Assembly (NCBI GenBank): GCA_963769425.1 | Contig: CAVYLP010000004.1 | Span: 352,494 to 416,493 of the forward strand | Direction of reading: 5' to 3' | DNA: 64,000 nucleotides | Source: Candidatus Bathyarchaeota archaeon | GTDB taxonomy: Archaea; Thermoproteota; Bathyarchaeia; TCS64 | Program-made: the position numbers and the translations under genes | The notes under the pieces: generated by a model | Database searches by the model: none | Told to the model about the DNA's origin: nothing | Seen by the model: the letters and a program-made list of their open reading frames with translations, nothing else | Shown: positions 174 to 17,786 of the stretch, in pieces | Position numbering within the stretch: position 1 is the first letter of the stretch | Layout of the letters: the number at the start of each line of letters is the position of its first letter

Positions 174-542
174 ATGAACGGACTAGAATTCGACACGTCA
201 CAATCAGGCTTCAATGCTGTTCTGAAGGACTGGCAGCTCAAGGCTATGAAGGTTGTCTGGGCTTCTCCAGAGGGCGCTAATAGTAGGACGGTTTGGATTA
301 AGGTGAACCAAGCTCTTCACGGCGAGACCATCTCTAGAGCCAGCATCATCAACTTCCTCGAGGCGATGCGAGAGATGGGTGTGATCTCGGGTGAGGAGAA
401 GACGGGTAAGGGTGGCCATCACTGGGTCTACTTCCCTAAGCTGGATGAGACCGGGTTCAAGAAGTATATTGTAGAGAAGATGTTAGAAATCCTGATGCGC
501 GACTTCCCAGATGAGACTAGGCAGATTATTAAAAAACTTTAA
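174..542 (+). CDS. BlaI/MecI/CopY-like winged-helix regulator (paralog A)
   Basis: 122-aa ORF with a wHTH-like core (SRASIINFLEAMREMGVISGEEKTGKGGHHWVY). Roughly 60% aa identity by eye to the inverted ORF 17415..17786. Confidence 0.55.
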   Translation: MNGLEFDTSQSGFNAVLKDWQLKAMKVVWASPEGANSRTVWIKVNQALHGETISRASIINFLEAMREMGVISGEEKTGKGGHHWVYFPKLDETGFKKYIVEKMLEILMRDFPDETRQIIKKL

Positions 543-1716: not shown

Positions 1717-1959
1717 TCAAGTTGTCGTAGACTGTTCGCATGGAATTTTCTTAGTAACTCGACTCCTTATTTTGGCGTCCCACTCCTCCATGACACCATA
1801 GTCAATCATTGTCGTCATACCCGCAATTGCTGCTCTCAAACTGACACCAACCAAGGGTATTTCGGCCACCGTTATAATGAGGTCAGCGTGCAAGATCACT
1901 CCTTTTTCCAGGATCAAATCTAAGAGATCTACCAAAGCTCCTTCTCTTGTAGGCTCCAT
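1717..1959 (-). CDS. gvpM: Gas vesicle protein GvpM (GvpA/J/M family)
   Basis: 80 aa. LVDLLDLILEKGVILHADLIITVAEIPLVGVSLRAAIAGMTTM matches the GvpA-family core and the GvpM-type LRAAIAGMTTM segment. It is the last gene of the minus-strand gvp operon. Confidence 0.8.
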   Translation of the reverse strand: MEPTREGALVDLLDLILEKGVILHADLIITVAEIPLVGVSLRAAIAGMTTMIDYGVMEEWDAKIRSRVTKKIPCEQSTTT

Positions 1960-1963
1960 GGTT

Positions 1964-3883
1964 TTAGGCCTCCTCCTCGAGTTCTAGCATTAATAGCGCC
2001 TCCCTGAGATGCTTAACCTCAGATTCAACTTTCCTGCCAGATTCTGTCTTAATCTTCCTAATTGAATTCTCAATTAGAGTCCGGTTTTTATTCGACTTAC
2101 CGCTTGGAAATCTGAGTGCTGAGGAAGCTAGAAGACTCATACGTTCCACAGTATTCGCCTTTGACTTTGAGACTTCAACTATGTTAGTCAGTGCATCTGA
2201 TGATTTTTTCATTTCCTTAATGTTTTCGTTTGTAATGGAGATCTCTAGTCTGCTCATAGCCTCCAAATAACCTATCTTCTCCTTCTCAGTGAGGGATTTT
2301 TCTACATCCTCGAATAGCCTTTTAGCACCGAATAAAATAGCCTTGGCATTTTCCGCGGATTTAATATCTGCCACTACTTTAGAGTCTGCATCATCGAATT
2401 TTGTAGCCTCGATGATTTTTAAAGCAATTTCACTCTCTGTAATCTCTTTTGCACTTCTGACGGGGACATCATAACATAACCCGGTCGATAGTACCTCAGC
2501 GGAGACTTTGAGGATACCATCCGCGTCGACTTTAAAGGCGACTTCAACCTCCTGTCCAAACCTAGGTGCAGGTGGGATACCATCTATCTTCAGTAATCCC
2601 AAAGAGGTATTGCCACGTGCAACATCCCTCTCACCCTGTAGAACATGGATGATCATTGTTGATTGTTGGTCTTCTTCCGTAGAAAAATTCCGTCTCGCTA
2701 ACGTCGGAATAGTTGTGTTTCTCTGGATCAACCTGGTAAATATTCCTCCAGCAGTCTCCACGCCAAGAGAGAGAGGTATAACATCCATTAGTAGCATATC
2801 CCTTATCTCGCCGCTCATGATGATACCCTGTGTTAGGGCTCCCATTGCCACAACGTTCATTGGGTCTATGCCCTCCTCCGCCTCTCTCCCGAAGATCTTG
2901 AGGATTTGTCTACGCACCACTGGCATCTTCGTAGGGCCTCCGACTAGCACCAGCTTGTCGATATCCTCGATAGATAGTGATGAGTCTTCGAGAGCTTGCA
3001 TGATTGGCTGACGCAGTCTATTGGTCAACCCAGCAACTAGTAATTCGAGTCTACTACGGGTTAAGACCAATCTTGGTTTTAGTATCTTATCTCCAATAGA
3101 CAGTATGGGGGTAACCGTGACTCTCTCAAGACTGGAGAGTTTTATCTTCATTTGTTCCGCTGCATCTCGGAGTGTGTTCAGGCTTTGGGGATCCGAGCTC
3201 AAATCTATGGAACACTTTCTCTCTATTTCCTTGATGAGGTAGTTGAGGATGGCATCGTCCATATCCTTCCCTCCGAGAACAGTGTCTCCACAGGTTGATC
3301 GAACTTTGAAGATCCCCTGCCTCATCTCCAGTATTGTGATGTCGAAGGTTCCGGCTCCGAGATCGAGCACGGCGATGTCAAGATCTGCGTCTCTTTGGTT
3401 AAGGCCGTAAGCAAGTGCCGCTGCTGTGGGTTCGCTCACGATCCTTAGTACATTGAATCCGGCGAGCTCCCCCGCCTGTCTAGTCGCATTACGCTGACTA
3501 TTATTGAAGTAGGCGGGCACCGTGATCACAGCCTGGTTAATTGTCTCCCCGATGAATCTCTCGGAGTCGAGCTTAATCTTCTTCAAGATGAACGAGGAAA
3601 TTACCTGTGGCGTATACGATACACCGTCGACATTGAAGGTGTAATCAGAGCCCATTTGTCTCTTGACCCATCGGACGACCCTATCTGAATGAACATTAGA
3701 GTATTCTAGAGCCTTCTTACCCACGACTACTTCGCCGTCCTCTCTAAAGGCTACTGCAGATAGGAACATTTTACCATGAGCAGTCTCCCCATCCTCCGAG
3801 GGCACGACCCTGATCTTTCCATCCTTTAAAATAGCGGCTGAAGAGTTGCTGGTCCCAAGATCGATACCCAACGTACGTTTCAA
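1964..3883 (-). CDS. Hsp70/DnaK-family chaperone embedded in the gvp operon
   Basis: 639 aa with a TTG start preceded by AAGGTGA. Hsp70 signatures GIDLGTSNS, DLGAGTFDITIL and LVLVGGPTKMPVV, plus a full substrate-binding domain (DVIPLSLGVETAGG...). Lies 11 nt downstream of the J-domain gene and 4 nt upstream of gvpM. Confidence 0.9.
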   Translation of the reverse strand: MKRTLGIDLGTSNSSAAILKDGKIRVVPSEDGETAHGKMFLSAVAFREDGEVVVGKKALEYSNVHSDRVVRWVKRQMGSDYTFNVDGVSYTPQVISSFILKKIKLDSERFIGETINQAVITVPAYFNNSQRNATRQAGELAGFNVLRIVSEPTAAALAYGLNQRDADLDIAVLDLGAGTFDITILEMRQGIFKVRSTCGDTVLGGKDMDDAILNYLIKEIERKCSIDLSSDPQSLNTLRDAAEQMKIKLSSLERVTVTPILSIGDKILKPRLVLTRSRLELLVAGLTNRLRQPIMQALEDSSLSIEDIDKLVLVGGPTKMPVVRRQILKIFGREAEEGIDPMNVVAMGALTQGIIMSGEIRDMLLMDVIPLSLGVETAGGIFTRLIQRNTTIPTLARRNFSTEEDQQSTMIIHVLQGERDVARGNTSLGLLKIDGIPPAPRFGQEVEVAFKVDADGILKVSAEVLSTGLCYDVPVRSAKEITESEIALKIIEATKFDDADSKVVADIKSAENAKAILFGAKRLFEDVEKSLTEKEKIGYLEAMSRLEISITNENIKEMKKSSDALTNIVEVSKSKANTVERMSLLASSALRFPSGKSNKNRTLIENSIRKIKTESGRKVESEVKHLREALLMLELEEEA

Positions 3884-3894
3884 GCAACTTCACC

Positions 3895-4881
3895 TTAAGA
3901 TAGGACCCGACGACCTGCCAGGGAGACGATCAGCCTGTCTTCAACTAGCTGGTCATCGGTATTGCAGGGATAATTCTCGCAGTACTCGACTAAGAGATCT
4001 CTAGCGCTTTTTAGGGCCCTGAACTCGTGTTCAGTATCTGGGCTTGTGTTATCGTCTGGGTGACAAAGCCGAATCAATTTCTTGAAAACGATTTCAACGT
4101 CAGATAATGAGAAAGGGTCATCTAAACCTAGGAGTTTCTTTGCCTTTGATACCTGCTCGAAACTAACTTTTTTTACACTGAGATTAACGAAATCGTAGGG
4201 AGGTAGTGGTGTAACACATCGGAATTTGAGCACCTCCTGGTAAGCATCTTCCAGTTCATCTATTTTTAAGAGGAAATCGGTTGAATCCCTGTCTTTCACT
4301 AGGAATGAGTTGTTGAAAATCATATCGCTATTTTCAATCTTTCTCTCTTTGCATCCAATCGCTAGGGCATTCAAGGAGTTAAGGATCCCTGGGATCAGCT
4401 TCCTCTCCTCTGACGTGAGAGACTCTTTTATTCTTCGACCTAGCTCAATTTTTAATGCTACGCTATTAGGTGCCTCTTTGAGTTTCTCGAAGGATAACTT
4501 CACGTTCTTCTCATTCATGACGTTGGATAGAACTTGATTATTCCAAGAAACCCTGATATCCACCTGAAATGTTCCCCTTAAACGTTCGATTGTTTCCTTG
4601 AAGGGGATTAAACCCTGCTTCAAGATGTCTTTGATATCTTTTTCGTTTCTTGCGAATAGCCCAAAACCAACGGGCACCACCGAGCCCTCTTTCATAGCTC
4701 GTAAAATGACTTTTTCATGTGTCAAAGCATCTACTGGCTTCATTTCTTCCGTGTCAGGAAATTGACTTGATAATATGCAGATTTCTTTAAATGAGATCGT
4801 TGAAACCTCGGCTCCACGAATTCCAATATTTCCTAAGCTGTGATTTCTAGGTTCACTCGCTACACAGTAGATGTAGTTCAT
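3895..4881 (-). CDS. GvpF/L-family protein with C-terminal J-domain
   Basis: 328 aa. The N-terminus (MNYIYCVAS...) and PLPPYDFV near residue 226 are typical of GvpF/L. Residues about 241-301 read LLGLDDPFSLSDVEIVFKKLIRLCHPDDN...EFRALKSARDLLVEY, a J-domain pattern with the HPD codons at 4054-4062. There is a 4-nt start/stop overlap with the upstream gvpF/L. Confidence 0.8.
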   Translation of the reverse strand: MNYIYCVASEPRNHSLGNIGIRGAEVSTISFKEICILSSQFPDTEEMKPVDALTHEKVILRAMKEGSVVPVGFGLFARNEKDIKDILKQGLIPFKETIERLRGTFQVDIRVSWNNQVLSNVMNEKNVKLSFEKLKEAPNSVALKIELGRRIKESLTSEERKLIPGILNSLNALAIGCKERKIENSDMIFNNSFLVKDRDSTDFLLKIDELEDAYQEVLKFRCVTPLPPYDFVNLSVKKVSFEQVSKAKKLLGLDDPFSLSDVEIVFKKLIRLCHPDDNTSPDTEHEFRALKSARDLLVEYCENYPCNTDDQLVEDRLIVSLAGRRVLS

Positions 4882-5669
4882 TTACCGACCACCCTATCGC
4901 TACCAGAAAAGACAAAGGAGTAGGGTGGCCAAGGGCCAGTGAACTTTACGGTTAAACCATCTTTCTCGATGAAGGTTGAGAGCATTTTTCCGAGAGGCTT
5001 GACGTTCTCCGTATTAACGAGGCATGAAATTTTTAGTATCATTTGGGATTTTTCTTCGAGTGATGGAGTCTCCTGATGAACCTCATCGGAAAAAACCTTA
5101 ATCTTCTGAAATTTCTCCTCGGCAATGGCTCGAGCTTCCACCTCCCTGAAGACTCTTGTTTTCTGCTCCAGTTTTTTTTGCAGGAGGTATGATGCACCCT
5201 TCGGTTTATTCTCTAGAGCTTCCTTGAGAGCAGATACTTCGGGGTGTTTATTGACAAGTTCTCCGAGGACGCCATCATCTATGCTGATCTTAATGCTATA
5301 CTCCGCTTTATTTTTGAACGTCTCTAGTAGACTAATCAGTCTGTCATGCTCCTCATTGAGCCAATTAATCACCTCTTCGTCTCCTCCCTTGAAGATTGTG
5401 TTAAACTTCAGGGGAACAACGGTCTCGTAACGATGCATCGCGAGGTCAACGATATTTTGGTGGGACATCACCCACTCTCTCGCAATTTTATCATCAGTGG
5501 TATCATATGGTTCGGAGCTGCATTGGTGAACGATTCCGCTGATACCGTTGGTCGAGACGGAGTGAACTTGTTGTCCGTTTATTCCAGGGAAACTCAGATC
5601 TCTCTCTTTCGGAATATGATTTGTGACACAGTAGAGATATGTTCCAAGTCCACTGGTCCCATTACCCAA
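4878..5669 (-). CDS. Gas vesicle protein GvpF/L family
   Basis: 263 aa with the GTYLYCV N-terminal motif and a C-terminal GPWPPYSF motif. Overlaps both neighbours. Confidence 0.85.
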   Translation of the reverse strand: MGNGTSGLGTYLYCVTNHIPKERDLSFPGINGQQVHSVSTNGISGIVHQCSSEPYDTTDDKIAREWVMSHQNIVDLAMHRYETVVPLKFNTIFKGGDEEVINWLNEEHDRLISLLETFKNKAEYSIKISIDDGVLGELVNKHPEVSALKEALENKPKGASYLLQKKLEQKTRVFREVEARAIAEEKFQKIKVFSDEVHQETPSLEEKSQMILKISCLVNTENVKPLGKMLSTFIEKDGLTVKFTGPWPPYSFVFSGSDRVVGK

Positions 5670-5988
5670 TTTTCCTTACCTCCCTCGAGGATTGAGGATT
5701 CACTAAGTCAATACTGTCTTCAACCAGCTTATTCAGTTCACCGCGGACATTCCTAACGACATCTGTAAGATTATTCTCAATTTTTATCAAATCTATTGCT
5801 TTATCTAACTCAATTAGACTCAATCCAAGTCTATCTATCTCATCATCAGTTAGCTGTAAACTATCCATTCTCCTTACTGCCTCTTTCTCAAGTACATCTT
5901 TTATTATCTCTACTAATGCGACAACCAATCCCAGTAGACCGGATTTAAGATTGTCCTCGTCTATTTTAATCATAGTTTTAAGCTCCAC
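5662..5988 (-). CDS. gvpK: Gas vesicle protein GvpK
   Basis: 108 aa. LKSGLLGLVVALVEIIKDVLEKEAVRRMDSLQLTDDEIDRLG matches the GvpK pattern. Confidence 0.85.
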   Translation of the reverse strand: MELKTMIKIDEDNLKSGLLGLVVALVEIIKDVLEKEAVRRMDSLQLTDDEIDRLGLSLIELDKAIDLIKIENNLTDVVRNVRGELNKLVEDSIDLVNPQSSREVRKIG

Positions 5989-6007
5989 TGTTGATTAAGA
6001 TTATTTC

Positions 6008-6355
6008 TTACTTCCAAATTTCTTGTTCTTTCCAGCCACACATACATTCATTTTTCTTTAGTGCGTTTTCGAAAATCTTTCCACAGTTGGGGCAAGCCTC
6101 TTTAGCTGCCAAAGCCTTCCAGGCTGGCGCGTTTAGGTTCGTCCCCGAAGGAAATTCGAGGCCGAATTTCGCCGCCGTCTCGAATGAAGCAAGTGCCGCC
6201 CTTATCTTAACTCCTAGAAGCTCCACACCAACGACACTTACCATAATGTCCGCGTTAATTACCAGACCTTTATCGAGGATCATACCGATAGCATCTGCAA
6301 GACCCGTTGGTCCTTCTTTTTCAGGGCTCAGGATTAGTTCATTTGTGTTCATCAA
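6008..6355 (-). CDS. gvpJ: Gas vesicle protein GvpJ (GvpA family) with Cys4 tail
   Basis: 115 aa with a GvpA-family core (LADAIGMILDKGLVINADIMVSVVGVELLGVKIRAALASFETAAKFG). The C-terminal tail reads CPNC-x12-CMC. Confidence 0.85.
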   Translation of the reverse strand: MMNTNELILSPEKEGPTGLADAIGMILDKGLVINADIMVSVVGVELLGVKIRAALASFETAAKFGLEFPSGTNLNAPAWKALAAKEACPNCGKIFENALKKNECMCGWKEQEIWK

Positions 6356-6468
6356 TCTCCCTCATCTTATTAACATTAGATTTCTATCTACTCTATCCAA
6401 GTCTATATCATACTTAAGTAATGCTAAATATTTTGATACGAATTCTGTTTCGAAATTCGAAATATTAA

Positions 6469-6783
6469 CTAATTTACTTTAACGTCGTTATGTATATCGT
6501 TAAGAAGATTAATTCTTAAAGAGTTTAAATTGTTAAGTTCTTCAATATCTCTTAATTTAAGGTTTAATTCTTTATTTTTTCTTACGTACTCTTCCCTTGT
6601 TATTTCTCCGAGCTCATAAAAGAGGCTATTTTCCTTCAAATTATCAAGTACCCATTTTTTTACTTCCTTTTGATAGGCCTCTTCTGCGTTACTCGAAATG
6701 GTTTCCATCAACCATATCATGTCAAATGGGGGAAGCGAGAGACCTACAGAGCGTAGCAGAATATCATCTATAAAAAAAACCAT
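6469..6783 (-). CDS. gvpG: Gas vesicle protein GvpG
   Basis: 104 aa. MVFFIDDILLRSVGLSLPP...GEITREEYVRKNKEL fits the GvpG pattern. Confidence 0.7.
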   Translation of the reverse strand: MVFFIDDILLRSVGLSLPPFDMIWLMETISSNAEEAYQKEVKKWVLDNLKENSLFYELGEITREEYVRKNKELNLKLRDIEELNNLNSLRINLLNDIHNDVKVN

Positions 6784-6795
6784 TCACATCAAGAC

Positions 6796-7602
6796 CTATC
6801 GCTTAAACTCTATGCCTTCTTTTCCGATCTTGATGTGAATAAAATTATAGGGTGCCCAAGGACCGCTATATAGAAGCTTCACCATCGGATACATCGATCT
6901 CAACCGAGCAACTTCCTCCGAGAACGGGGGTAAACTATCTTTCTTTACCAAGAATGATTCATTGAATAATAACCGGTCACTAAATAATTCACCAGACACC
7001 GATTTAATTGCCAAACATTTTAGAGGTTCAAGAATTTCAGTAGGTTTTAAATCTTGAGTGTCAGTTAGATCCTTCATAATTACCCCCTTAACTCCTAGCT
7101 CAACGCAATTCTCGACGGATCTAAGTGCCTCCGTGATGTGGGTACTCGCCTTTTCAAGGAGTTGCTTGAGAACTACTCCAGACTGGAGCACTGTTTCGAA
7201 CTCGGCTGGAATAACTGTATTAGATTCCAAGAGAAGTCGAAGTACCTCGTTATGTCTCTTCGCATTCGCTTCAGTGAGCTCATATTCCCCTTTTTCAGTG
7301 TCGCTTACGACGCCGGCTAAGCCTTCATATTGAATTACATAAACTTCTTCGTCGAGTATACCTATTTTCCCGAAATTCGCTTTTCCGTTATTGAATATTA
7401 TTGCGTAGAGGTATTTTCCGGATTGCATATTTCCAACATAGGTTACTTTTGCAGATCGATTTTCTTCATTAATTTTGATATCTGTTATAGTTTCAGTATC
7501 AGCAATAACTGTTCCCGATTCTTCACTTTTAGGTATTATCTTATAAGCTGTTTGTGTCTCCACCGTTGAGCTCAAAGTGAGTTCATTGTTAGGTTCAATC
7601 AA
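6796..7602 (-). CDS. Gas vesicle protein GvpF/L family with about 60-aa N-terminal extension
   Basis: 268 aa with GKYLYAIIFN and a C-terminal SGPWAPYNF. There is an 8-nt overlap with the upstream regulator gene. Confidence 0.8.
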   Translation of the reverse strand: MIEPNNELTLSSTVETQTAYKIIPKSEESGTVIADTETITDIKINEENRSAKVTYVGNMQSGKYLYAIIFNNGKANFGKIGILDEEVYVIQYEGLAGVVSDTEKGEYELTEANAKRHNEVLRLLLESNTVIPAEFETVLQSGVVLKQLLEKASTHITEALRSVENCVELGVKGVIMKDLTDTQDLKPTEILEPLKCLAIKSVSGELFSDRLLFNESFLVKKDSLPPFSEEVARLRSMYPMVKLLYSGPWAPYNFIHIKIGKEGIEFKR

Positions 7603-8491
7603 GCCATGGATCTCTCCTTCTGTTCGAATTTAGTCTTACTGTGTTGTCAACCAGTTGACCGGCTTCCATTTGAAGGTTCGATCTACTTTGAAGATAATTA
7701 TTTAACATTTTTCGGGCTTGTATTTGGTCAGAGATTAGTTGCTGTATTTCACTCTCGGATTCGCTAGTGGTTTTGTATATCCGCTCCTTTCCCATTCTCA
7801 TGGAAGAAAGTAGCCCCTTTTTCTGTAGAGAATCTAGTAGGGGATAGACGGCGCCTGGACTTAGTAGAACATTGAACTCCATATTTATCGTTTTCATTAT
7901 GTCTAACCCAGTCATCATTTTCTCCTGCATTAATGAGAGAATAATTATGTCCAAATTATCTTTCACATTCTTTTTTATGGAGTCATAAGATACCTGAAGC
8001 GATTCTATAAATTCTCCAGAAATGAGGGCCAGATCGTTCGTCGTTAGCTGTAAGAGAGTGTGAAGTTTGGAGAGTGGTTTGATCATTTGTTCAGATAAGG
8101 CGTTTATTCGATACGTGCAAAGGCATCTGATGGGATTCTTAGCGATTAATCCGATAATATTCTGTTCTCGCTCCCAGATCTGCTCATATGTCTGACTCGG
8201 TAGAGATCCTGTATCGATGATTAGACGTATCTTGGTTTTTTTATCTGATTCATCGTTCAGACTATTTAATCCATCGAAGCTAAGGACTTTCAAGTTAACA
8301 TTGGCTAAGTCTAATTCGTTTATGATTTTCCCTTGTTCGTCTGATGAAATTATTATTGCATCTTCATCGTCTTCCATAGAATCAAAAAAAGACTTGTGTA
8401 TTAGTTGTTTATTCACCTTTGATGAATATAGGTGTAAAATATGCTCTGAAGATTTAGTGTCTATAATACAACTTAAATCATTACTAATCAT
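7595..8491 (-). CDS. PadR-type wHTH regulator with N-terminal MEDS-like sensory domain
   Basis: 298 aa. The C-terminal half has the PadR signature (LLSPGAVYPLLDSLQKKGLL...ERIYKTT). The N-terminal about 170 aa (HILHLYSS...IRCLCTYRINAL...LHTLL) resembles a MEDS domain by eye only. Confidence 0.6.
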   Translation of the reverse strand: MISNDLSCIIDTKSSEHILHLYSSKVNKQLIHKSFFDSMEDDEDAIIISSDEQGKIINELDLANVNLKVLSFDGLNSLNDESDKKTKIRLIIDTGSLPSQTYEQIWEREQNIIGLIAKNPIRCLCTYRINALSEQMIKPLSKLHTLLQLTTNDLALISGEFIESLQVSYDSIKKNVKDNLDIIILSLMQEKMMTGLDIMKTINMEFNVLLSPGAVYPLLDSLQKKGLLSSMRMGKERIYKTTSESESEIQQLISDQIQARKMLNNYLQSRSNLQMEAGQLVDNTVRLNSNRRRDPWLD

Positions 8492-8566
8492 ATATATTCA
8501 TCCATCACTAGCAATTGGTTTCTCTTCCTGATATTGAATTATTAACTTTAACATTGTGAAAGTTCT

Positions 8567-8854
8567 TTATCCTGAGTAGTGATCAAAGCGTTTACGGATC
8601 AATATCTGCTTCCAGCCCAAAATCTTGCCACTTGCATTGAAGTTAACCTGGTAACGACTGAGAAGATCTTGAGAGTCGGGCATACCCTTTCTTTCGAGAG
8701 CCTCAACGATTACGTACCAGCCATCCTTGGACTCCTCGATACTTACAACCGTCTCAGCTTTACGTAGAATCGTATTTTTCACTATATCCATTGCTGACAT
8801 CACAAAAAATTCGATTGGGGGAGTATTCTGCATCATAGCTTCGTTACTTGACAA
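8567..8854 (-). CDS. gvpO: Gas vesicle protein GvpO
   Basis: 95 aa. VVSIEESKDGWYVIVEALERKGMPDSQDLLSRYQVNFNASGKILGWKQ fits the GvpO pattern. Starts 2 nt after the gvpN stop. Confidence 0.7.
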   Translation of the reverse strand: MSSNEAMMQNTPPIEFFVMSAMDIVKNTILRKAETVVSIEESKDGWYVIVEALERKGMPDSQDLLSRYQVNFNASGKILGWKQILIRKRFDHYSG

Positions 8855-8856
8855 GT

Positions 8857-9870
8857 TTATTGATCCTTCCTGTAGACATCCCTCAATACATCGTCAACTA
8901 AGGTGATGTACTTCGAATCCGATTCGGGACCTGAGATCTTTGAGGAAAGTACATCGAGGTATATCTGCTGAATGTCCTCGAACTCTCGACTCATCATTAC
9001 TCTTAGCCCCCTTCCAACCATTATAGCCGCTCGGGTTCCCGGCTTCGACTCAAGGGGCATTTTATCCCTAATATGCCTCATCGAAGTAACTACTTTTCCC
9101 GCGTCTTCGTCATTAAGCCCAGTGTGCTTCATCACAATATCGAGCTCTGTGGGGAAATCGTAATAGTCCATGTAAATGTGAATCATGCGATCCAGAAGGG
9201 CATCTTGTGGCCTGTGAACACCAGCATACTCGATGGAGTTGCTTGTGAATATTACACTGAAGTTAGGATGCACCTTCACGTAGCGTTGTGCACCAAACAT
9301 CATTGGAAGCTCGAGAATGCCCTCTTCGAGGACTGAAAGTAGCACGTTGTTGGCCATCGGCTTTGCTCGAGAAAACTCGTTATAGATTAGAGTGTAGCCA
9401 TACTTACATGCGATCGTAAGTGGGTTATCCACCCACATGTATTTACTCTTGTCCTTCGCGACGACGACGTTGTGTACGTACCTATCCCTAATTATGGATG
9501 TCTCCATCTCGGAGTACCCTCCGATCAGGTCTCCAGTTGTCATTTGATCGTCTCCGTTTACCCATAGAATGGGTTGGCCCATTTTCCTGGCTACGGCTAG
9601 CGCTAGCGTCGTCTTCCCACACCCGGTTGGACCTATTAGATGTGGAGAATACCCAACATCGGTCCACTTCACTACTCGCTCAATTATCTTGCTGACTTGT
9701 TCTGTCTCCACGAAATTCTCATTGGCTGGAACCAGAAACTCGAAATCTACTTTATCAATTTTTATAGGTTCTTCGTTTTTCACTCTTTTCTTCTTATCTG
9801 AGTGCTCCTTCATCGTGTCATGTATTTTTGACCCAATCACTCGTCGAGGATGCGCTTCCTTGTAATACAT
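8857..9870 (-). CDS. gvpN: Gas vesicle AAA+ ATPase GvpN
   Basis: 337 aa with Walker A GPTGCGKTT. The overall pattern is typical of GvpN/CbbQ-like ATPases. It is the first gene of the minus-strand operon. Confidence 0.9.
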   Translation of the reverse strand: MYYKEAHPRRVIGSKIHDTMKEHSDKKKRVKNEEPIKIDKVDFEFLVPANENFVETEQVSKIIERVVKWTDVGYSPHLIGPTGCGKTTLALAVARKMGQPILWVNGDDQMTTGDLIGGYSEMETSIIRDRYVHNVVVAKDKSKYMWVDNPLTIACKYGYTLIYNEFSRAKPMANNVLLSVLEEGILELPMMFGAQRYVKVHPNFSVIFTSNSIEYAGVHRPQDALLDRMIHIYMDYYDFPTELDIVMKHTGLNDEDAGKVVTSMRHIRDKMPLESKPGTRAAIMVGRGLRVMMSREFEDIQQIYLDVLSSKISGPESDSKYITLVDDVLRDVYRKDQ

Positions 9871-10367
9871 TCCTTTCTTATCACCTGAGAATGAGGGCTC
9901 CTTAGCCTTTTTAACTAATATTTAGAAAATAGTTATGAGTATTGAGTCGAGTTTGGAAACATTAACAATAAACGAATAAGTGAAAAAACTAAGAAATAGG
10001 TTATGTCGCCTTTTGCTTATTTTCCATATTACTCTTCAGCCATATGGTCCTTACACACTGTGGGCGAGGAACAACTGACATATGTTGAGTCATTTCTCTG
10101 AATTTCTTTGACCAGAGTAACTGTTTTATCCTTTTTGGATTCTTACTTGCTATAGACATATTTCTTAACCTTCTACACTGAGCTAAAACGATTCTCTGAA
10201 AGTATATAACAAATATTCAAGGAGATGAAACGTAAATTGTTTCGAATCCGGATGTTCCTTTTGATTAATGATAATGAAGTTTGTTTAAAAGAGTTTTTTT
10301 GATAAATCTATTGATAAATATAATATGAGTGACAAAGAGCGAGTAAATAGTTTATTTTTTGATATTT

Positions 10368-11081
10368 TTAGATTGTCTTTAACTTTTTTAAAGTTATTTC
10401 TAAAATACCATTTTCGTATTTCTTTTTAACATCAGTTTTATCGGCTTTTTCAGGGAGGTTTATTTCGATGAGGTTATTGTCATTTAGACCAGTATTTATT
10501 TTTAGCTTATCCCGATCGACTTCGACTGTTATTTTCTTTTCGTCCAAGTTTGGTAGCTCAGCTATTATGGTGATGTAGTCGACATTTTCCGTTATTTCGA
10601 TTAAGGGTTCGTTATTATCTAGGGATTTGGGTAAATCTCCGAGTTTTAAGTTGAGGGATGGCTCTTTTCCAGGACGTTTACTGTTAAGACTGCTGTGGCC
10701 AACGATATGACCTTTCAGAGGTCTGGCGTTTATTTTATATTCGAAGACACCTTTTTTTCCTGCTACCTCAAATTCCTTTTTAACATATTCCGTTTTTTCT
10801 GATAGTTCAGATAATCTGTTAATAATATCTATAAATCCGCCGTTTTTATTATTATCACTCGCCTTTCCAGAAATTCCCATAGTGTTAAAAGTTAAATTGA
10901 ATAGATCTGATACCTCATTCACCATTTTCTTTAAATCACTATTTTCATCTACTTGTTTATTTTTTTGCATCTTTTCATTTAATTCTTGTAAGCTTTTTTC
11001 AATTTTCTCGATTTCATTTTTCCTTTGTTTTACTTCTTCCGATAAGTCCTCTATTTTTTTTCTGATGTCATCATTTGACAA
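10368..11081 (-). CDS. Hsp20/alpha-crystallin small heat-shock protein with N-terminal coiled coil
   Basis: 237 aa. The C-terminal about 90 aa (IEITENVDYITIIAELPNLDEKKITVEVDRDKL...KKKYENGILEITLKK) is an alpha-crystallin domain pattern. The N-terminal half is Lys/Glu-rich coiled coil. Confidence 0.8.
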   Translation of the reverse strand: MSNDDIRKKIEDLSEEVKQRKNEIEKIEKSLQELNEKMQKNKQVDENSDLKKMVNEVSDLFNLTFNTMGISGKASDNNKNGGFIDIINRLSELSEKTEYVKKEFEVAGKKGVFEYKINARPLKGHIVGHSSLNSKRPGKEPSLNLKLGDLPKSLDNNEPLIEITENVDYITIIAELPNLDEKKITVEVDRDKLKINTGLNDNNLIEINLPEKADKTDVKKKYENGILEITLKKLKTI

Positions 11082-11096
11082 TTCATTAACACACTC

Positions 11097-11465
11097 TTAG
11101 ACATTATTCGCGTTCAAATTTTTTAATAAATGTATATTTACAAAACTGAATATTCTTTCACTATGTTTTTGATACGAATCATTAATTATATGTACCCTTA
11201 TTTGACCTTTCTCAGTGAGAGAATATAATTTTCTTCTATCCATGGAGTTAACTTCTATAAATCCCTCCTTCTCAAGATGATATAGAAGAGGGTACAGAGT
11301 CCCTGGGCTAAGTAAAACGCCGAACGACTTGTGTAATTCTCCGATTAATTTGTATCCGTATATGGGTTCGCCATTCAGCATAGCAAGTACTATTACGTCT
11401 AAAAATGTCTTGATCATGCTGTCGTTTAGTTTTTCCGAAGTATATTCTGGATACATCGTGGTCAT
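11097..11465 (-). CDS. PadR-family transcriptional regulator
   Basis: 122 aa. FLDVIVLAMLNGEPIYGYKLIGELHKSFGVLLSPGTLYPLLYHLEKEGFI is a classic PadR wHTH. Transcribed divergently from gvpA. Confidence 0.85.
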   Translation of the reverse strand: MTTMYPEYTSEKLNDSMIKTFLDVIVLAMLNGEPIYGYKLIGELHKSFGVLLSPGTLYPLLYHLEKEGFIEVNSMDRRKLYSLTEKGQIRVHIINDSYQKHSERIFSFVNIHLLKNLNANNV

Positions 11466-11655
11466 GGTAGGTACAACAGTTAGTTTGTTATTAAACAGTT
11501 ATGAATGCCATATTTATGTAAAATATACATCCAGATGAATTATCAATCTATACAAGAAAATCATGTAAATTAAACATCTATAATAAGGATATTATGTTTA
11601 ATGATTTATAGTATATTTTCTGATTTGATATAAGAAACGGATATCTAAATATTGC

Positions 11656-11664
11656 TTATATAAA
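11656..11664 (+). promoter_or_regulatory. Candidate TATA box of the gvpA promoter
   Basis: TTATATAAA lies about 75 nt upstream of the gvpA ATG. A GGAG ribosome-binding site at 11727-11730 is 6 nt before the ATG. Sequence pattern only. Confidence 0.3.
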
Positions 11665-11736
11665 GAAAGGGAATGTTCTGTGTTTAGGCGAGTCGAGAAC
11701 GAAGAGTCGCCGACAAAACAAAAAAAGGAGTAATGA

Positions 11737-11967
11737 ATGAAAATGGTAAGTCAAACCCCAGATGCAAGCAGTCTCGCAGAAGTTATCGACAGGATACTGG
11801 ACAAAGGTCTAGTCGTGGACGTATGGGCCAGGGCTTCACTGGTTGGGATAGAGATCCTGACCATCGAGGCTCGCGTGGTCGCAGCCAGCGTTGACACGTT
11901 CCTCCACTACGCTGAGGAGATGACAAAGGTCGAGCAAGCGGCCATTGCCGTTGCCCCAGCTGCGTAG
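11737..11967 (+). CDS. gvpA: Major gas vesicle structural protein GvpA
   Basis: 76 aa. [52 protein letters not shown] is the near-universal GvpA core. Confidence 0.95.
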
Positions 11968-11997: not shown

Positions 11998-12522
11998 TTG
12001 AGGTGTATGACCACGGCCGAATACAATGAAGCCAAAGAAACGTATATCAAGGAGCTAGCAAGCAACAACTCAAGGAAAAAGTTGGATGAGATAGCATCGG
12101 CTTTGGACCTTGACCCCAAGAAGTACGCGAGCAAGAGGGAGATTGCATTAGCAATCATGCTGGCTGGCAGTCAAGCTCTGTTGTATAGGTCTAACGTCGA
12201 CACCGCCGATACAGAAGAGGAAAAAAAGGAGATGAGTAAACAAATGAGTTCCGTGAAAAGCATCAGAAAAGCCATCAACGACGAAGCAGAGAGTTTCATG
12301 ACATTCTATAAGGGCGAGTTTATGACCAACATAGCAGCGTTCCATGATGCCACTCAGATGTTCAGAGAGGACATCAAAAAGCAGGTGAAGGAGAACAACG
12401 ACTTTGATCATGAATTTGGTCAGAGTGTCAAGAAATATCAGGACAGCATAGAAATCTTCAGACGCAGCATACTAGAACAGTCAAAAGAGAACCAAAAATA
12501 CATCAGACAGTTCTACGGCTAA
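11998..12522 (+). CDS. Hypothetical protein immediately downstream of gvpA (GvpC position)
   Basis: 174-aa ORF with a TTG start at 11998 and an alternative ATG at 12007. It is hydrophilic and helical-looking, with two loosely similar about 30-aa C-terminal segments. No clear similarity to GvpC. Confidence 0.5.
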   Translation: MRCMTTAEYNEAKETYIKELASNNSRKKLDEIASALDLDPKKYASKREIALAIMLAGSQALLYRSNVDTADTEEEKKEMSKQMSSVKSIRKAINDEAESFMTFYKGEFMTNIAAFHDATQMFREDIKKQVKENNDFDHEFGQSVKKYQDSIEIFRRSILEQSKENQKYIRQFYG

Positions 12523-12574: not shown

Positions 12575-12917
12575 ACTAATTCGTATTTTTTTTAATAGTT
12601 TAGGAAGGGGATCAATAATTTATATAATTTAATGTGATTCTTAATAATATCTTTTAATAAGTAAATTTGTTGAATAGTATTGGAAATAATTTCCTTATTG
12701 ATATTTATTTCTTACTATCTTTTCTTATAACCTTAACGATGATTACTACTAATTCGTATTTTTTTTAATAGTTTAGGAAAGGGATCAATAATTTATATAA
12801 TTTAATGTGATTCTTATAATATCTTTTAATAAGTAAATTTGTTGAATGGTATTGGAAATAATTTCTTTATTAATATTTATTTATTACTATCTTTTCTTAT
12901 AACCTTAACGATGATTA
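12575..12917. repeat. Tandem duplication, 2 x about 173 bp, AT-rich
   Basis: Unit 12575-12747 recurs at 12748-12917 with a few substitutions and one 1-nt indel. It begins 53 nt after the stop of the gvpA-downstream gene. Confidence 0.9.
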
Positions 12918-13287
12918 TCTCACCTAATTTTAAATTGAGTTCTCTAACGATATTTACAGGTATTGTAATTATTGAGCTAGCACATTGATATCTAACTTTA
13001 CCTTCGAACTTCTTTGAGAATTCATTGATTTCGTTCTCTGTTTATAAGAACTGATGTGTGAACCTTAATTTAATATTCTTCGTGGTTTAATAACTCACAA
13101 TAATTGTAAAGGCTTTAAATTTACCTCATTTCCACTCTCCCAGTTAATTCTTAGAGCAGGATCGATTGAAACACCATTTAATCTCTTTAACCTCATACAT
13201 CCGACAAAACCATGGGAAAGTCTCGCGAGCGAGTTATCAACAGGGAACGGGCACTACTAAATAATTCTCATTGCGCGAAATATTTAA

Positions 13288-13913: not shown

Positions 13914-14186
13914 TTAATTGGTTTTTTTGAATCCAATAACTGGATAGAGGTTTTTCAACTCTTTTTCTCTCTCATCTAATTGTTTTTCAATCAGTTCTAA
14001 TAGTTGTTCAGGTGAAAATGGTTTTACAATGTACTCGTGTACCCCATAGCGGATAGCCTCCTGAGCGGTCTCAATGGAAGGATAGCCTGTAATGATTAAT
14101 TTCCGGATTACTGGCTTAGTGTCCTCAATAAAACCTATTAATTTTACTCCATCCATATCAGAGAGTTTAACGTCAACAATAATCAA
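13914..14186 (-). pseudogene. 5'-truncated CheY-like receiver domain
   Basis: 90 aa starting at IIVDVKLSDMDG, the phospho-acceptor Asp region, and running through KPF to the C-terminus. The N-terminal about 50 aa with the acidic pocket are absent. The upstream in-frame sequence is closed by TAA. Confidence 0.6.
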
Positions 14187-14510
14187 TGAATAAAATTTAT
14201 GAGATGTTTAATATAATGTTTAAGAAGATCTTCAGTCTTTTCTTTTCCATATGGTGTGAGTTTATATGATATTTTTATTGCTTTCCGTCACTACTATTTT
14301 TCGTTTAAATCGGGTTTCCGTCAACTCTACTATTAATCGAATTAAATTGTCTTTTTCCATTCTGTAAAGAAGTGGATACATGGTACCCGGACTCAGTAGG
14401 ACGCCAAATTGTTTGTGCCTGCTATTATCTTTTTCCCAAATTATGTTTATGTAGAGAGAAAAAAAATAGCGTCCCAGTAGGGTTCGCGGGTAAAGTTCGA
14501 TATCAGTGTG
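14183..14510 (-). pseudogene. PadR-family gene remnant (no start codon, frameshift)
   Basis: The minus-strand frame reads ...HKQFGVLLSPGTMYPLLYRMEKDNLIRL...NII-stop (stop at 14262-14264). It continues in another frame as YKLTPYGKEKTEDLLKHYIKHL. There is no start codon after the upstream in-frame TAG at 14511-14513. Confidence 0.5.
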
Positions 14511-15130
14511 CTAGTTCTATAATTACTATACCTGTAAGTATTGTCCGAGGTCTTAACCTGAAATTAGGTGATACTGTTATGTGAGTGTCAAAAGATGATA
14601 GTAAGGATAATTTGCAGACTAAGTAAACTAGTTAGATATTTTAACCGAGATAATATGTAATAGATATCCAATAGATCACACGCCTTATCTTTCACAGTGT
14701 CATCAATCTAACCATTTAAAAAAATCATTTGATTTCAATCTAAAAAATAGTCTTAACTTCAATACTATACGATATGATACATCGATATACTTTTAAAAAA
14801 CTACATATTCAGATCTGAACGACATTACAGAACGTTAAAAATTCAAAAGTAAAAATTAATCCTCTATCCAACATTTTATTGATAGCTTCTGTCATACTGA
14901 ATGCCTCTACGGCGACTTACCGTTTTTTTCATATATATATATTTATTTTTTTCTACGAGCCTTTTTTTGACTCGCTTAAACAAATTATATTATATTTGTT
15001 TATGCACATCTGCTATTATCTTGTAACCATATGCAGGTTCGTTTTTTAATATGATGAGAATTATAATATCTAAAAGGGATTTTATAAGTTGGTCGTCGAG
15101 GTTTACTTCGATTCGATTTTGTGGATATAA

Positions 15131-17414: not shown

Positions 17415-17786
17415 TTACAATATCTTTGAGATAGCTTTCCTCGTCTCAGCGGGGAAGTTCTCCAATAAGCAAGTCAACATTGTTTCAACTATGTATTTTC
17501 TAAATCCTTCTTCATCCAATGGAGGGTGATAGACGTAGTGATGACCACCTTTACCGGTCGCGTCATCCCCTCGTATTACCAACATTTCACGCATTGCTTC
17601 AAGGAAATTGATGATGCTCGCTTTACTGATAGGTTCATTATTGAGGGCCTTGACCACGGAGTTCCAGACAGTACTGCTGGATACTCCCTCGGGATGACTC
17701 CAAACCACCTTTATCGTCTCAAGTTGCCAGTCCTTGATGACCGCAAGGAAGCCGATCCGAGACGTATCGAATTCGATTTCGTTCAT
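17415..17786 (-). CDS. BlaI/MecI/CopY-like winged-helix regulator (paralog B)
   Basis: 123 aa, colinear with ORF 174..542 (MNxxEFDTS...KDWQL...ASIINFLEAMREM...GKGGHH.VY...GF+KYIVE). Opposite orientation. Confidence 0.55.
   Translation of the reverse strand: MNEIEFDTSRIGFLAVIKDWQLETIKVVWSHPEGVSSSTVWNSVVKALNNEPISKASIINFLEAMREMLVIRGDDATGKGGHHYVYHPPLDEEGFRKYIVETMLTCLLENFPAETRKAISKIL

What the first reader, a model, noticed from the sequence alone, without database searches (positions are those of the whole stretch)
1717..11081. Gas-vesicle operon with a built-in Hsp70 / J-domain / Hsp20 chaperone set
Eleven co-directional minus-strand genes run gvpN, gvpO, MEDS-like/PadR regulator, gvpF/L, gvpG, gvpJ, gvpK, gvpF/L, gvpF/L::J, hsp70, gvpM. 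Start/stop overlaps occur at 7595-7602, 5662-5669 and 4878-4881, and the gaps around the Hsp70 gene are only 11 nt and 4 nt. The Hsp70 therefore sits between assembly and structural gvp genes rather than in a dnaK-dnaJ-grpE context. It has the full set of Hsp70 ATPase and substrate-binding signatures. An alpha-crystallin Hsp20 lies just upstream of gvpN. The canonical gvp gene sets I know (haloarchaeal gvpACNO/DEFGHIJKLM, Bacillus megaterium, Serratia, cyanobacteria) contain no Hsp70/J pair, and no grpE-like gene is visible here. My inference is that this is a dedicated chaperone module handling the very aggregation-prone GvpA/J/M proteins during vesicle nucleation or growth.
Basis: partly seen in the sequence, partly recalled or inferred. 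Interest (0 to 1): 0.85.

Follow-up and report, generated by a model that had tools for sequence, protein, structure and literature searches.

The report
Gas-vesicle operon with dedicated Hsp70/J pair
A Bathyarchaeia gas-vesicle gene cluster carries its own specialised Hsp70 chaperone, sitting next to a gas-vesicle assembly protein (GvpF) that has a fused J-domain; the pairing is conserved across many related genomes, which points to an undescribed ATP-driven chaperone step in building gas vesicles.

Summary
All eleven minus-strand genes, the overlaps and the 11-nt and 4-nt gaps are as stated, and profile searches confirm every call. The window comes from a Bathyarchaeia genome.

The GvpF::J-domain gene is followed directly by the Hsp70 gene in all 23 other Bathyarchaeia loci examined. 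The HPD motif is invariant, and dN/dS is about 0.12, like the core gvp genes.

This Hsp70 is not a housekeeping DnaK. It fails NCBI's DnaK and HscA cut-offs. It keeps every catalytic, allosteric and J-contact residue. It has lost the GrpE-signature loop and the cleft salt bridges, and its substrate cleft is remodelled: V436M as in HscA, with arch residues S/A404 and E429. The nearest canonical relatives sit in grpE-dnaK-dnaJ operons.

Homologous GvpF::J fusions are abundant in Bacteroidota gvp clusters. One Flavobacterium cluster independently embeds a DnaK-type Hsp70. A Thermoplasmatota MAG has a sister J-domain + Hsp70 + GvpM arrangement. In 49 other gvp clusters I found no J-domain and only one Hsp70, at the locus edge.

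Hsp20 in gvp clusters is already known. I found no paper linking Hsp70 or J-domains to gas vesicles.

Best reading: a client-dedicated, GrpE-independent Hsp70/J machine, analogous to HscA/HscB, aimed at GvpA-family proteins through GvpF. This function is inferred, not tested.

The parts
1964..3883 (-). Specialised Hsp70 (639 aa, TTG start). It has a complete NBD, linker, SBD-beta and lid, but is not a DnaK or HscA equivalog.
   Evidence: Pfam HSP70 at 528 bits. NCBIfam DnaK models score 576 and 567 bits against cut-offs of 648 and 822; HscA scores 449 against 708. Residue audit. Closest solved structure is G. kaustophilus DnaK 2v7y.
3895..4881 (-). GvpF/L-family protein with a C-terminal J-domain (328 aa).
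   Evidence: Pfam GvpL_GvpF at 154 bits plus DnaJ at 26.4 bits. The AF2 model matches GvpF crystal structures 6l5d and 4qsg (E 1e-13) and J-domains (T. thermophilus DnaJ, rmsd 1.0-1.5 A).
3967..4149 (-). J-domain (about residues 245-305). The HPD motif is residues 274-276, at nt 4054-4062.
   Evidence: In Bathyarchaeia sequences H and D are 26/26 and P is 24/26. In Bacteroidota they are 114-115/115.
1717..1959 (-). GvpM-like small GvpA-family protein (80 aa). It lacks the C-terminal PH-like extension found in most relatives.
   Evidence: Pfam Gas_vesicle at 52 bits. Relatives are 189-217 aa with weak bPH_3 / Vps36-GLUE hits.
4878..5669 (-). GvpL/F paralogue (263 aa).
   Evidence: Pfam, 201 bits.
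5662..5988 (-). GvpK.
   Evidence: Pfam, 63 bits.
6008..6355 (-). GvpJ-like GvpA-family protein with a Cys-rich tail.
   Evidence: Pfam Gas_vesicle, 49 bits.
6469..6783 (-). GvpG.
   Evidence: Pfam, 32 bits.
6796..7602 (-). GvpF/L paralogue (268 aa).
   Evidence: Pfam, 130 bits.
7595..8491 (-). MEDS-like + PadR regulator. It is conserved at this position in Bathyarchaeia and methanogen gvp clusters.
8567..8854 (-). GvpO.
   Evidence: Pfam, 56 bits.
8857..9870 (-). GvpN AAA+ ATPase.
   Evidence: NCBIfam TIGR02640 at 325 bits against a cut-off of 267.
10368..11081 (-). Hsp20 / alpha-crystallin protein with an N-terminal coiled-coil region. It lies 497 nt upstream of gvpN.
   Evidence: Pfam HSP20 at 22.4 bits against 20.8. 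NCBIfam archaeal Hsp20 at 59 bits, below its cut-off. Orthologue in L002.
11097..11465 (-). PadR regulator, 15 nt upstream of hsp20.
   Evidence: Pfam, 56 bits.
11737..11967 (+). GvpA, the major shell protein, transcribed divergently.
   Evidence: Pfam, 47 bits. 72-82% identical to haloarchaeal, methanogen and Bathyarchaeia GvpA.
11998..12522 (+). 174-aa protein after gvpA with no family hit. It is weakly similar to the post-gvpA ORFs of other archaeal clusters and may be a GvpC-like analogue.

Best explanation
This is a client-dedicated Hsp70/J-protein machine built into the gas-vesicle operon.

Proposed mechanism:
1. The GvpF domain of the fusion protein binds a GvpA-family shell or nucleation protein. 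This is inferred from published GvpF-GvpA binding.
2. The C-terminal J-domain, with an intact HPD, docks on the ATP form of the adjacent Hsp70 and triggers hydrolysis. This is inferred from the conserved R167, Q378, P419, L391 and D393.
3. The Hsp70 clamps a restricted motif in its shallow, remodelled cleft. This is inferred from V436M, S/A404 and E429.
4. The Hsp70 recycles without GrpE, because the GrpE-signature loop and the cleft salt bridges are lost. This is inferred by analogy with HscA.

The net effect would be ATP-driven holding and hand-over of aggregation-prone GvpA/J/M subunits to the growing vesicle.

Shown here: gene content, synteny conservation, fusion architecture, residue patterns and purifying selection. 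Not shown: client, stage, ATPase behaviour or necessity.
For: - gvpF::J is followed by hsp70 in all 23 other Bathyarchaeia loci. Where both ORFs are intact the gap is at most 30 nt. The position of gvpM varies, but this adjacency does not.
- All of the 18 species-representative genomes that carry the Bathyarchaeia-type fusion have the Hsp70 downstream.
- HPD is invariant. The J fold and the GvpF fold are both recovered from the model.
- In the 120-sequence clade audit, the catalytic residues D8, K70, E171, D194, T199 and D201 are 120/120. R167 is also 120/120.
- In the same audit V436M is 120/120, A429E is 104/120 and M404 is S or A in 114/120. R56 is lost and the GrpE-signature loop is replaced, with a 2-aa deletion. 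The review PMC8215388 lists these as hallmarks of the specialised HscA and HscC.
- The protein fails the DnaK and HscA equivalog cut-offs, while the comparators pass.
- The nearest canonical relatives lie in grpE-dnaK-dnaJ operons.
- There is a gap of more than 100 bits between the gvp clade and all other Hsp70 representatives.
- dN/dS is 0.12-0.13.
- Independent parallels exist. Bacteroidota have a homologous GvpF::J. A Flavobacterium gvp cluster embeds a DnaK-type Hsp70 between gvpK and a conserved gvp-cluster gene. A Thermoplasmatota MAG has J + Hsp70 + GvpM.
- Background rate: 0 J-domains and 1 Hsp70 (at the locus edge) in 49 other gvp clusters.
- GvpF is the primary GvpA binder and a proposed chaperone (PMC11445434, PMC10903477).
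- GvpA is proteotoxic when not chaperoned (PMC12848028).
Against: - There is no expression or functional data.
- Gas vesicles have not been reported in Bathyarchaeia in the searchable literature.
- Model organisms build vesicles without any in-cluster Hsp70, so the module is not universally required.
- 3 of 4 Bacteroidota clusters with GvpF::J lack an in-cluster Hsp70. The J-domain can therefore presumably use a housekeeping Hsp70.
- One Bathyarchaeia MAG (L005) has a frameshifted hsp70. This may be a long-read assembly error or a pseudogene.
- The window's own J-domain scores just below Pfam's cut-off.
- The idea of a private J-Hsp70 interface is only half-consistent. Helix II and NBD charges change together, but K48 is retained opposite a now-basic residue 477.
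Confidence: 0.7

Rival explanations
1. This is an uncoating or quality-control machine rather than an assembly chaperone. GvpF::J would bind assembled or mis-assembled GvpA lattice, or GvpF-GvpA complexes, and recruit Hsp70 to extract subunits. That could serve vesicle turnover, removal of off-pathway aggregates, or release of GvpF from GvpA. The analogy is auxilin/Hsc70 on clathrin.
For: - The architecture is a lattice- or client-binding domain with a C-terminal J-domain, as in auxilin.
- Bacteroidota and Thermoplasmatota clusters pair the same fusion with a Cdc48-type unfoldase.
- GvpF binding to GvpA must be displaced by GvpG (PMC11445434).
- How vesicles are degraded is an open question (PMC10903477).
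Against: - Nothing in the sequence distinguishes extraction from delivery.
- The tight translational coupling with the nucleation genes gvpK, gvpL and gvpM fits biogenesis at least as well.
Confidence: 0.17
2. The pair has a regulatory or thermosensing role. It would control the activity or stability of the cluster's MEDS/PadR regulators, or of another Gvp protein, coupling vesicle formation to temperature or proteotoxic stress. The analogy is DnaK and sigma-32.
For: - Two PadR-type regulators and an Hsp20 are in the locus.
- DnaK is known to regulate native clients (PMC8215388).
Against: - The J-domain is fused to a GvpF structural or assembly fold, not to a regulator.
- The fusion is conserved in Bacteroidota clusters that use different regulators (sigma-54 activators).
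Confidence: 0.07
3. The adjacency is coincidental: a housekeeping DnaK happens to lie next to the gvp genes.
For: - Sources annotate the protein as 'molecular chaperone DnaK'.
- In two haloarchaeal loci a housekeeping-type dnaK lies within 10 kb of gvpA.
- Whether this genome has another Hsp70 is unknown. The window has none.
Against: - Synteny is conserved across 24 loci down to 42% identity.
- No grpE or type-I dnaJ is adjacent.
- The protein fails the DnaK equivalog cut-offs.
- The GrpE signature is lost and the substrate cleft is altered.
- The partner J-domain is fused to a Gvp protein.
Confidence: 0.03

Closest known systems
HscA-HscB (Hsc66/Hsc20) of the isc Fe-S cluster operon
   Same: - A specialised Hsp70 encoded in the operon of its client pathway, with a dedicated J-protein.
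- No GrpE requirement.
- Loss of the GrpE-signature motif and of the K55-E267 / R56-E264 salt bridges.
- V436-to-M, which makes the binding pocket shallow.
- A restricted client range (PMC8215388).
   Different: - It is not an HscA orthologue: TIGR01991 scores 449 against a cut-off of 708.
- It is of the archaeal, Gram-positive-like DnaK type lacking the 76-101 insertion.
- The arch is S/A404 with E429, not M with F.
- The J-protein is a fusion to GvpF rather than HscB.
- The main Bathyarchaeia clade keeps K55.
Canonical DnaK-DnaJ-GrpE system
   Same: - The Hsp70 fold.
- All catalytic and allosteric residues.
- The conserved interdomain linker.
- An HPD J-domain partner.
   Different: - No grpE and no type-I DnaJ (G/F region, zinc finger, C-terminal domains).
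- Fails the DnaK equivalog thresholds.
- GrpE signature and salt bridge lost.
[quoted passage not shown]
GvpF / GvpL assembly proteins of classical gvp clusters (Halobacterium, Anabaena, Microcystis, Priestia)
   Same: The N-terminal 235 residues have the GvpF fold (6l5d, 4qsg). The cluster otherwise holds the classical A, N, O, F, G, J, K, L, M set.
   Different: The classical proteins have no J-domain. There were 0 J-domain hits in 49 surveyed clusters.
Bacteroidota gvp clusters (for example Flavobacterium sp. LS1P28, and Bacteroidales MAGs)
   Same: - A homologous GvpF::J fusion that aligns end to end, with HPD invariant.
- An Hsp20-like gene in the cluster.
- One cluster embeds an Hsp70.
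   Different: - The Hsp70 is usually absent from the cluster (3 of 4).
- When present it is a canonical DnaK type. It passes the DnaK cut-offs, is 52% identical to a canonical archaeal DnaK and only 37% to the window protein, and is not adjacent to the J gene.
- These clusters add ArsA/Get3-like and Cdc48-like ATPases.
Auxilin/GAK-Hsc70 clathrin uncoating
   Same: An adaptor that recognises a self-assembling protein shell and carries a C-terminal J-domain that recruits Hsp70.
   Different: It is eukaryotic, with no homology beyond the J-domain, and it acts in disassembly. The direction of action here is unknown.

Membership tests
Hsp70 superfamily (PF00012) | Full-length match to the HSP70 profile, and the ATP-binding and catalytic residues D8, K70, E171, D194, T199 and D201 | tested here: met
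   528 bits. All six residues are conserved in the window protein and in 120/120 clade members.
DnaK (prokaryotic housekeeping Hsp70) | Score above the NCBIfam DnaK equivalog cut-offs (NF001413 at 648; TIGR02350 at 822.55) | tested here: not met
   576 and 567 bits. The Altiarchaeales DnaK and the Flavobacterium in-cluster Hsp70 pass both.
DnaK (prokaryotic housekeeping Hsp70) | GrpE-signature loop (PYITAD..GPKH, residues about 284-295) and the cleft salt bridges K55-E267 and R56-E264 | tested here: not met
   The loop is replaced and shortened by 2 aa. In the window protein K55 is L and R56 is E. R56 is lost clade-wide. Criteria are from PMC8215388.
DnaK (prokaryotic housekeeping Hsp70) | Arch M/L404 with A429, and the V436 pocket | tested here: not met
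   A404, E429 and M436 in the window protein. In the clade these are S/A404, E429 in 104/120 and M436 in 120/120.
DnaK (prokaryotic housekeeping Hsp70) | Genomic context with grpE and a type-I dnaJ | tested here: not met
   No GrpE or DnaJ_C homologue in the window or in any Bathyarchaeia locus. The comparators L004 and L116 do have grpE-dnaK-dnaJ.
HscA | Score above the TIGR01991 cut-off (708.55), and isc operon context | tested here: not met
   449 bits. The context is gvp, not isc.
J-domain protein | HPD tripeptide between helices II and III | tested here: met
   H274-P275-D276. Invariant in the 8-sequence and 9-sequence alignments, and near-invariant in 141 sequences.
J-domain protein | Match to PF00226 above the gathering score | tested here: inconclusive
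   The window protein scores 26.4 against 27.8. Orthologues score 44-50 bits.
J-domain protein | Helical J fold | tested here: met
   The AF2 model has helices at 241-251, 259-273 and 283-303. Foldseek matches DnaJ J-domains at rmsd 1.0-1.5 A over 52-57 columns with probability 1.0. Model pLDDT in this region is 63-85.
Type-I DnaJ | G/F region, CXXCXGXG zinc finger and DnaJ_C domains | tested here: not met
   Only the GvpL_GvpF and DnaJ domains are found.
GvpL/GvpF | PF06386 match and the GvpF fold | tested here: met
   154 bits. Foldseek matches 6l5d and 4qsg at E 1e-13 over 234 columns.
Gas-vesicle gene cluster | Presence of gvpA plus N, O, F, G, J, K, L and M homologues | tested here: met
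   All are found. Whether vesicles are actually made cannot be tested with these tools.
Small heat-shock protein (Hsp20) | Alpha-crystallin domain, PF00011 above its cut-off | tested here: met
   22.4 against 20.8, which is marginal. NCBIfam archaeal Hsp20 scores 59 against 140, so that is not met.

The most novel reading that the evidence does not exclude
The Bathyarchaeia protein, together with the sister Thermoplasmatota protein, would define a further class of specialised prokaryotic Hsp70 beside DnaK, HscA and HscC. It would be GrpE-independent and have a narrowed substrate cleft. It would have a co-evolved J-partner whose client-binding module is GvpF. Together they would form the first ATP-driven chaperone cycle known to load, or to extract, gas-vesicle shell proteins. 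Independent recruitment of Hsp70 into a Flavobacterium cluster, and of ArsA and Cdc48 ATPases elsewhere, would mean that many lineages solve GvpA proteotoxicity with operon-encoded proteostasis modules.
Probability: 0.5. Interest if true: 0.8.

Novelty: new variant of a known kind. Interest (0 to 1): 0.72.

Why it matters
How the extremely hydrophobic GvpA is kept soluble and delivered to the growing shell is an open question in the field. Which steps use energy beyond GvpN is also open (PMC10903477, PMC11445434).

A GvpF domain physically fused to a J-domain, next to a dedicated Hsp70, is direct genomic evidence for two things. GvpF acts as a client adaptor, and an Hsp70 cycle can be part of vesicle biogenesis. 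Both are testable with HPD mutants and with ATPase and peptide-binding assays.

For Hsp70 biology, it adds an archaeal example of a pathway-dedicated Hsp70 that appears independent of a nucleotide-exchange factor, with HscA-like convergent changes.

For biotechnology, GvpA proteotoxicity limits acoustic-reporter expression (PMC12848028). A cognate J/Hsp70 module is an obvious part to try.

It also suggests that gas vesicles exist in Bathyarchaeia from peat, soil and sediment. I found no report of this.

Tried and rejected
1. Housekeeping dnaK in the same genome. tblastn of the Hsp70 against the 64-kb window finds no second copy. No tool lets me read the rest of the 425-kb contig or the 2-Mb Bathyarchaeia contigs, so this stays untested. 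The only support is the literature statement that mesophilic Bathyarchaeia commonly have DnaK-DnaJ-GrpE (PMC8407382).

2. A hidden nucleotide-exchange factor in the cluster.
- tblastn with an Altiarchaeales GrpE finds nothing in any gvp locus.
- The conserved 176-aa unknown of other Bathyarchaeia clusters turned out to be Hsp20-like.
- The 230-aa gene after the Flavobacterium Hsp70 also occurs in clusters without Hsp70, so it is not an Hsp70 cofactor.

3. A clean charge-swap between the J-domain and the Hsp70. Helix II loses its positive charges (R22 and K26 become N, E or D), and the NBD has E206Q and E217K, which is suggestive. But K48 and K51 are retained opposite D477-to-K/R/Q, so I do not claim a proven private interface.

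4. Same-clade origin of the Flavobacterium and Bathyarchaeia in-cluster Hsp70s. Rejected: they are 37-46% identical, against 52% between the Flavobacterium protein and a canonical DnaK, and the Flavobacterium protein keeps the canonical signatures.

I redid it with A4.

6. Barriot et al. 2020, the survey of bacterial J-proteins, is not held. That paper or another subscription paper may already list the GvpL/F + DnaJ architecture.

7. Sigma-70 promoter scans were not used, because the organism is an archaeon. Operon structure is inferred from spacing only.

Full report
**Observation**

Eleven co-directional minus-strand genes run from 9870 to 1717. The overlaps are at 7595-7602, 5662-5669 and 4878-4881. 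The gaps on either side of the 639-aa ORF at 1964-3883 are 11 nt and 4 nt.

Pfam confirms the order GvpN, GvpO, MEDS(weak)/PadR, GvpL/F, GvpG, a GvpA-family protein (GvpJ-like), GvpK, GvpL/F, GvpL/F+DnaJ, HSP70 (528 bits), and a GvpA-family protein (GvpM-like). NCBIfam confirms GvpN at 325 bits against a cut-off of 267.

Upstream lie a marginal Hsp20 (22.4 bits against 20.8) and a PadR gene. gvpA and a 174-aa ORF of unknown family are transcribed divergently. The Hsp20 is 497 nt from gvpN across an AT-rich spacer, so it is probably not in the same transcript.

**Source and conservation**

The closest genomes are Bathyarchaeia MAGs. The window Hsp70's best 120 relatives in a 5.8-billion-protein database are all 50-100% identical and 630-665 aa long.

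I looked up the context of six of them. They include Bathyarchaeota BA2 and contigs of 1.15 and 2.2 Mb. All six are gvp clusters with a GvpL/F+DnaJ gene immediately upstream of hsp70.

A scan of species-representative genomes with an alignment of the fusion protein returned 18 loci. 15 are labelled Bathyarchaeia, one Thermoproteota, and two lie on contigs of 6-20 kb labelled Micrarchaeota and Pseudomonadota. All 18 have the Hsp70 directly downstream.

Across the loci where both ORFs are intact, the stop-to-start distance is at most 30 nt. The position of gvpM varies: it lies after hsp70 in most loci and before gvpF::J in L029 and L030. The J-Hsp70 adjacency never varies.

One MAG (L005) has a frameshift in hsp70. 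It is a long-read assembly, so an assembly error and a pseudogene cannot be told apart.

Between the window and its 81%-identical relative, dN/dS is 0.12 for hsp70 and 0.13 for gvpF::J. The values for gvpN, gvpL and hsp20 are 0.08-0.24.

**The J-domain fusion**

HPD is invariant in alignments of the fusion. In 26 Bathyarchaeia sequences H and D are 26/26 and P is 24/26. In 115 Bacteroidota sequences the three residues are 114-115/115.

The window copy scores 26.4 bits on PF00226, just under the cut-off. Orthologues score 44-50 bits.

An AlphaFold2 model has a mean pLDDT of 72. Residues 1-235 match the GvpF crystal structures 6l5d and 4qsg at E 1e-13. The C-terminal helices match DnaJ J-domains at rmsd 1.0-1.5 A.

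**The Hsp70 is specialised, not housekeeping**

I aligned 120 clade members against E. coli DnaK.

Conserved residues:
- Catalytic: D8, K70, E171, D194, T199 and D201.
- Allosteric and J-contact: P143, Y145, R151, R167, Q378, P419, L391, D393 and L484.

Altered features:
- The lower cleft salt bridge is lost, because R56 is not conserved. In the window lineage K55 is also lost.
- The GrpE-signature loop PYITAD..GPKH is replaced and is 2 residues shorter.
- The arch residues are S/A404 and E429, instead of M/L404 and A429.
- The central pocket residue V436 is M in 120/120 sequences.

Mayer's review (PMC8215388) gives exactly these elements as what separates the client-dedicated, GrpE-independent HscA and HscC from DnaK. 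The review attributes the shallow, selective pocket of HscA to the same V-to-M change.

NCBIfam agrees. The window protein fails both DnaK cut-offs (576 and 567 bits against 648 and 822) and the HscA cut-off (449 against 708). An Altiarchaeales DnaK passes both DnaK cut-offs.

The closest non-gvp relatives sit in textbook grpE-dnaK-dnaJ operons. They are 43-45% identical and come from an Altiarchaeales MAG and from the best canonical representative in a 1.84-billion-protein library. In that library the whole Bathyarchaeia gvp clade collapses to one representative at 626 bits, and the next hit scores 517 bits.

No GrpE homologue is detectable in the window or in any related locus.

**Beyond Bathyarchaeia**

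I surveyed 80 gvpA loci from methanogens, DPANN archaea, haloarchaea, Bacillota, cyanobacteria, Desulfobacterales, Acidobacteriota and others.

Among 49 non-Bathyarchaeia, non-Bacteroidota loci of at least 10 kb with at least two accessory gvp genes:
- 0 had a J-domain.
- 1 had an Hsp70, at the extreme edge of the locus.
- 8 had an Hsp20.

Bacteroidota clusters were the surprise. They carry a homologous GvpF::J of 346-350 aa that aligns end to end with the Bathyarchaeia protein. It is preceded by an Hsp20-like gene, an ArsA/Get3-like ATPase and a Cdc48-like double AAA+ ATPase.

A profile search found 531 relatives at E<1e-10. All of the top 120 have the architecture PF06386+PF00226, and most are from Bacteroidota.

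In Flavobacterium sp. LS1P28, a 601-aa Hsp70 is embedded between gvpK and a conserved gvp-cluster gene. It is DnaK-like: it passes the DnaK cut-offs, keeps the canonical signatures, and is only 37% identical to the window protein. I therefore read it as an independent recruitment. Three other Bacteroidota clusters have no in-cluster Hsp70.

A Thermoplasmatota MAG has a J-domain C-terminus with HPD, an Hsp70 43% identical to the window protein, a long GvpM and a Cdc48.

**Mechanism (inferred)**

GvpF is reported as the primary, transient binder of GvpA's hydrophobic face, and as a likely chaperone (PMC11445434, PMC10903477). Unchaperoned GvpA is proteotoxic (PMC12848028).

Fusing a J-domain to GvpF makes it a targeting co-chaperone. 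It would present a GvpA-family client to the adjacent Hsp70 and trigger ATP hydrolysis. The client would then be trapped in a cleft tuned to a narrow motif. Nucleotide exchange would be spontaneous, as in HscA.

I cannot tell from sequence whether the outcome is delivery to the growing shell, release of GvpF, or extraction of mis-assembled subunits.

Both docking surfaces are remodelled. The J-domain has R22, K23 and K26 replaced by N, E, S, I or D. The Hsp70 has E206Q, E217K and D477 replaced by K, R or Q. This hints at a private pairing, but the K48-477 pair does not fit a simple charge swap.

**Literature**

- Searches for gas vesicle with Hsp70, DnaK or J-domain, and for Bathyarchaeia with gas vesicle, found no paper describing this.
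- Hsp20 and ArsA in gvp clusters are known (PMC2963123).
- Public databases annotate the proteins generically. One JGI entry reads 'GvpL/GvpF/DnaJ domain'.
- Subscription papers such as Barriot et al. 2020 could not be checked.

**Verdict**

I class it as a new variant of the known kind 'pathway-dedicated Hsp70/J pair', and it is new for gas-vesicle biology.

Untested here: function, client, co-transcription, and whether a separate housekeeping dnaK exists in the same genome.

Noticed in passing
window 174-542 (+) and 17415-17786 (-): Two 65%-identical winged-helix proteins of 122 and 123 aa (one gives a weak Penicillinase_R hit) lie in inverted orientation and bracket the whole gvp region. 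Windows spanning 10-16 kb inside the bracket have GC 0.32-0.34, against about 0.5 in the rest of the window. This may mark island-like boundaries.
   Followed up: partly
window 12575-12917; 12920-13009 and 14482-14571: A tandem duplication of about 172 bp (96-99% identical) lies directly downstream of the gvpA-orf174 pair. It is followed by a 90-nt inverted repeat (81% complementary) whose arms are 1.5 kb apart.
   Followed up: no
window 13914-14186 (-), 14334-14417 (-): These look like decayed regulators next to the cluster. One is a response-regulator receiver missing its N-terminal half. The other is a 28-aa fragment 68% identical to the PadR at 11097-11465.
   Followed up: no
window 33907-39444 (-): An 1845-aa protein combines DUF4011, an AAA_11/AAA_12 superfamily-1 helicase and a REase_MTES_1575 nuclease domain. 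The architecture is defence-like or repair-like.
   Followed up: no
window 6008-6355 (-): The GvpJ-like protein ends in a Cys-rich tail (CPNCG...CMCGW) resembling a zinc ribbon. The orthologue in L005 gives a weak HypA hit.
   Followed up: no
window 1717-1959 (-) compared with L009 11953-12537, L115 4640-5218: In most Bathyarchaeia clusters and in the Thermoplasmatota cluster, GvpM is 189-217 aa with a C-terminal PH/GLUE-like domain (weak bPH_3 and Vps36 hits). The window lineage has only the 80-aa GvpA-like core.
   Followed up: partly
L009 7344-7874 and equivalents in most Bathyarchaeia loci: The conserved 'unknown' gene of about 176 aa just upstream of gvpK is a divergent Hsp20-like protein. 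Methanoperedens and Methanosarcina clusters have an hsp20 in the same position. The window lineage lacks it there and instead has the 237-aa Hsp20 upstream of gvpN.
   Followed up: partly
L008 561-2537 and 3774-5372: One Bathyarchaeia gvp cluster also contains a tandem ArsA/Get3-like ATPase (658 aa), an acetyltransferase and a histone-deacetylase-family gene between gvpG and the gvpJ genes.
   Followed up: no
L089 7278-10916; L112 6101-9879: Bacteroidota gvp clusters encode an Hsp20-like protein, a single-domain ArsA/Get3-like ATPase and a Cdc48/VAT-like double AAA+ ATPase immediately upstream of gvpF::J. This is a whole proteostasis toolkit inside the operon.
   Followed up: partly
L059 3491-4714 (-) and 13527-15530 (-): In a Halobacteriales MAG the gvp cluster lies between a dnaJ-type gene and a dnaK-type gene on the same strand, as if inserted into the housekeeping chaperone locus.
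   Followed up: no
L005 / L025 about 10001-11927: The hsp70 of one Bathyarchaeia MAG is split by a frameshift near codon 216. It is either a long-read assembly error or a pseudogene.
   Followed up: no
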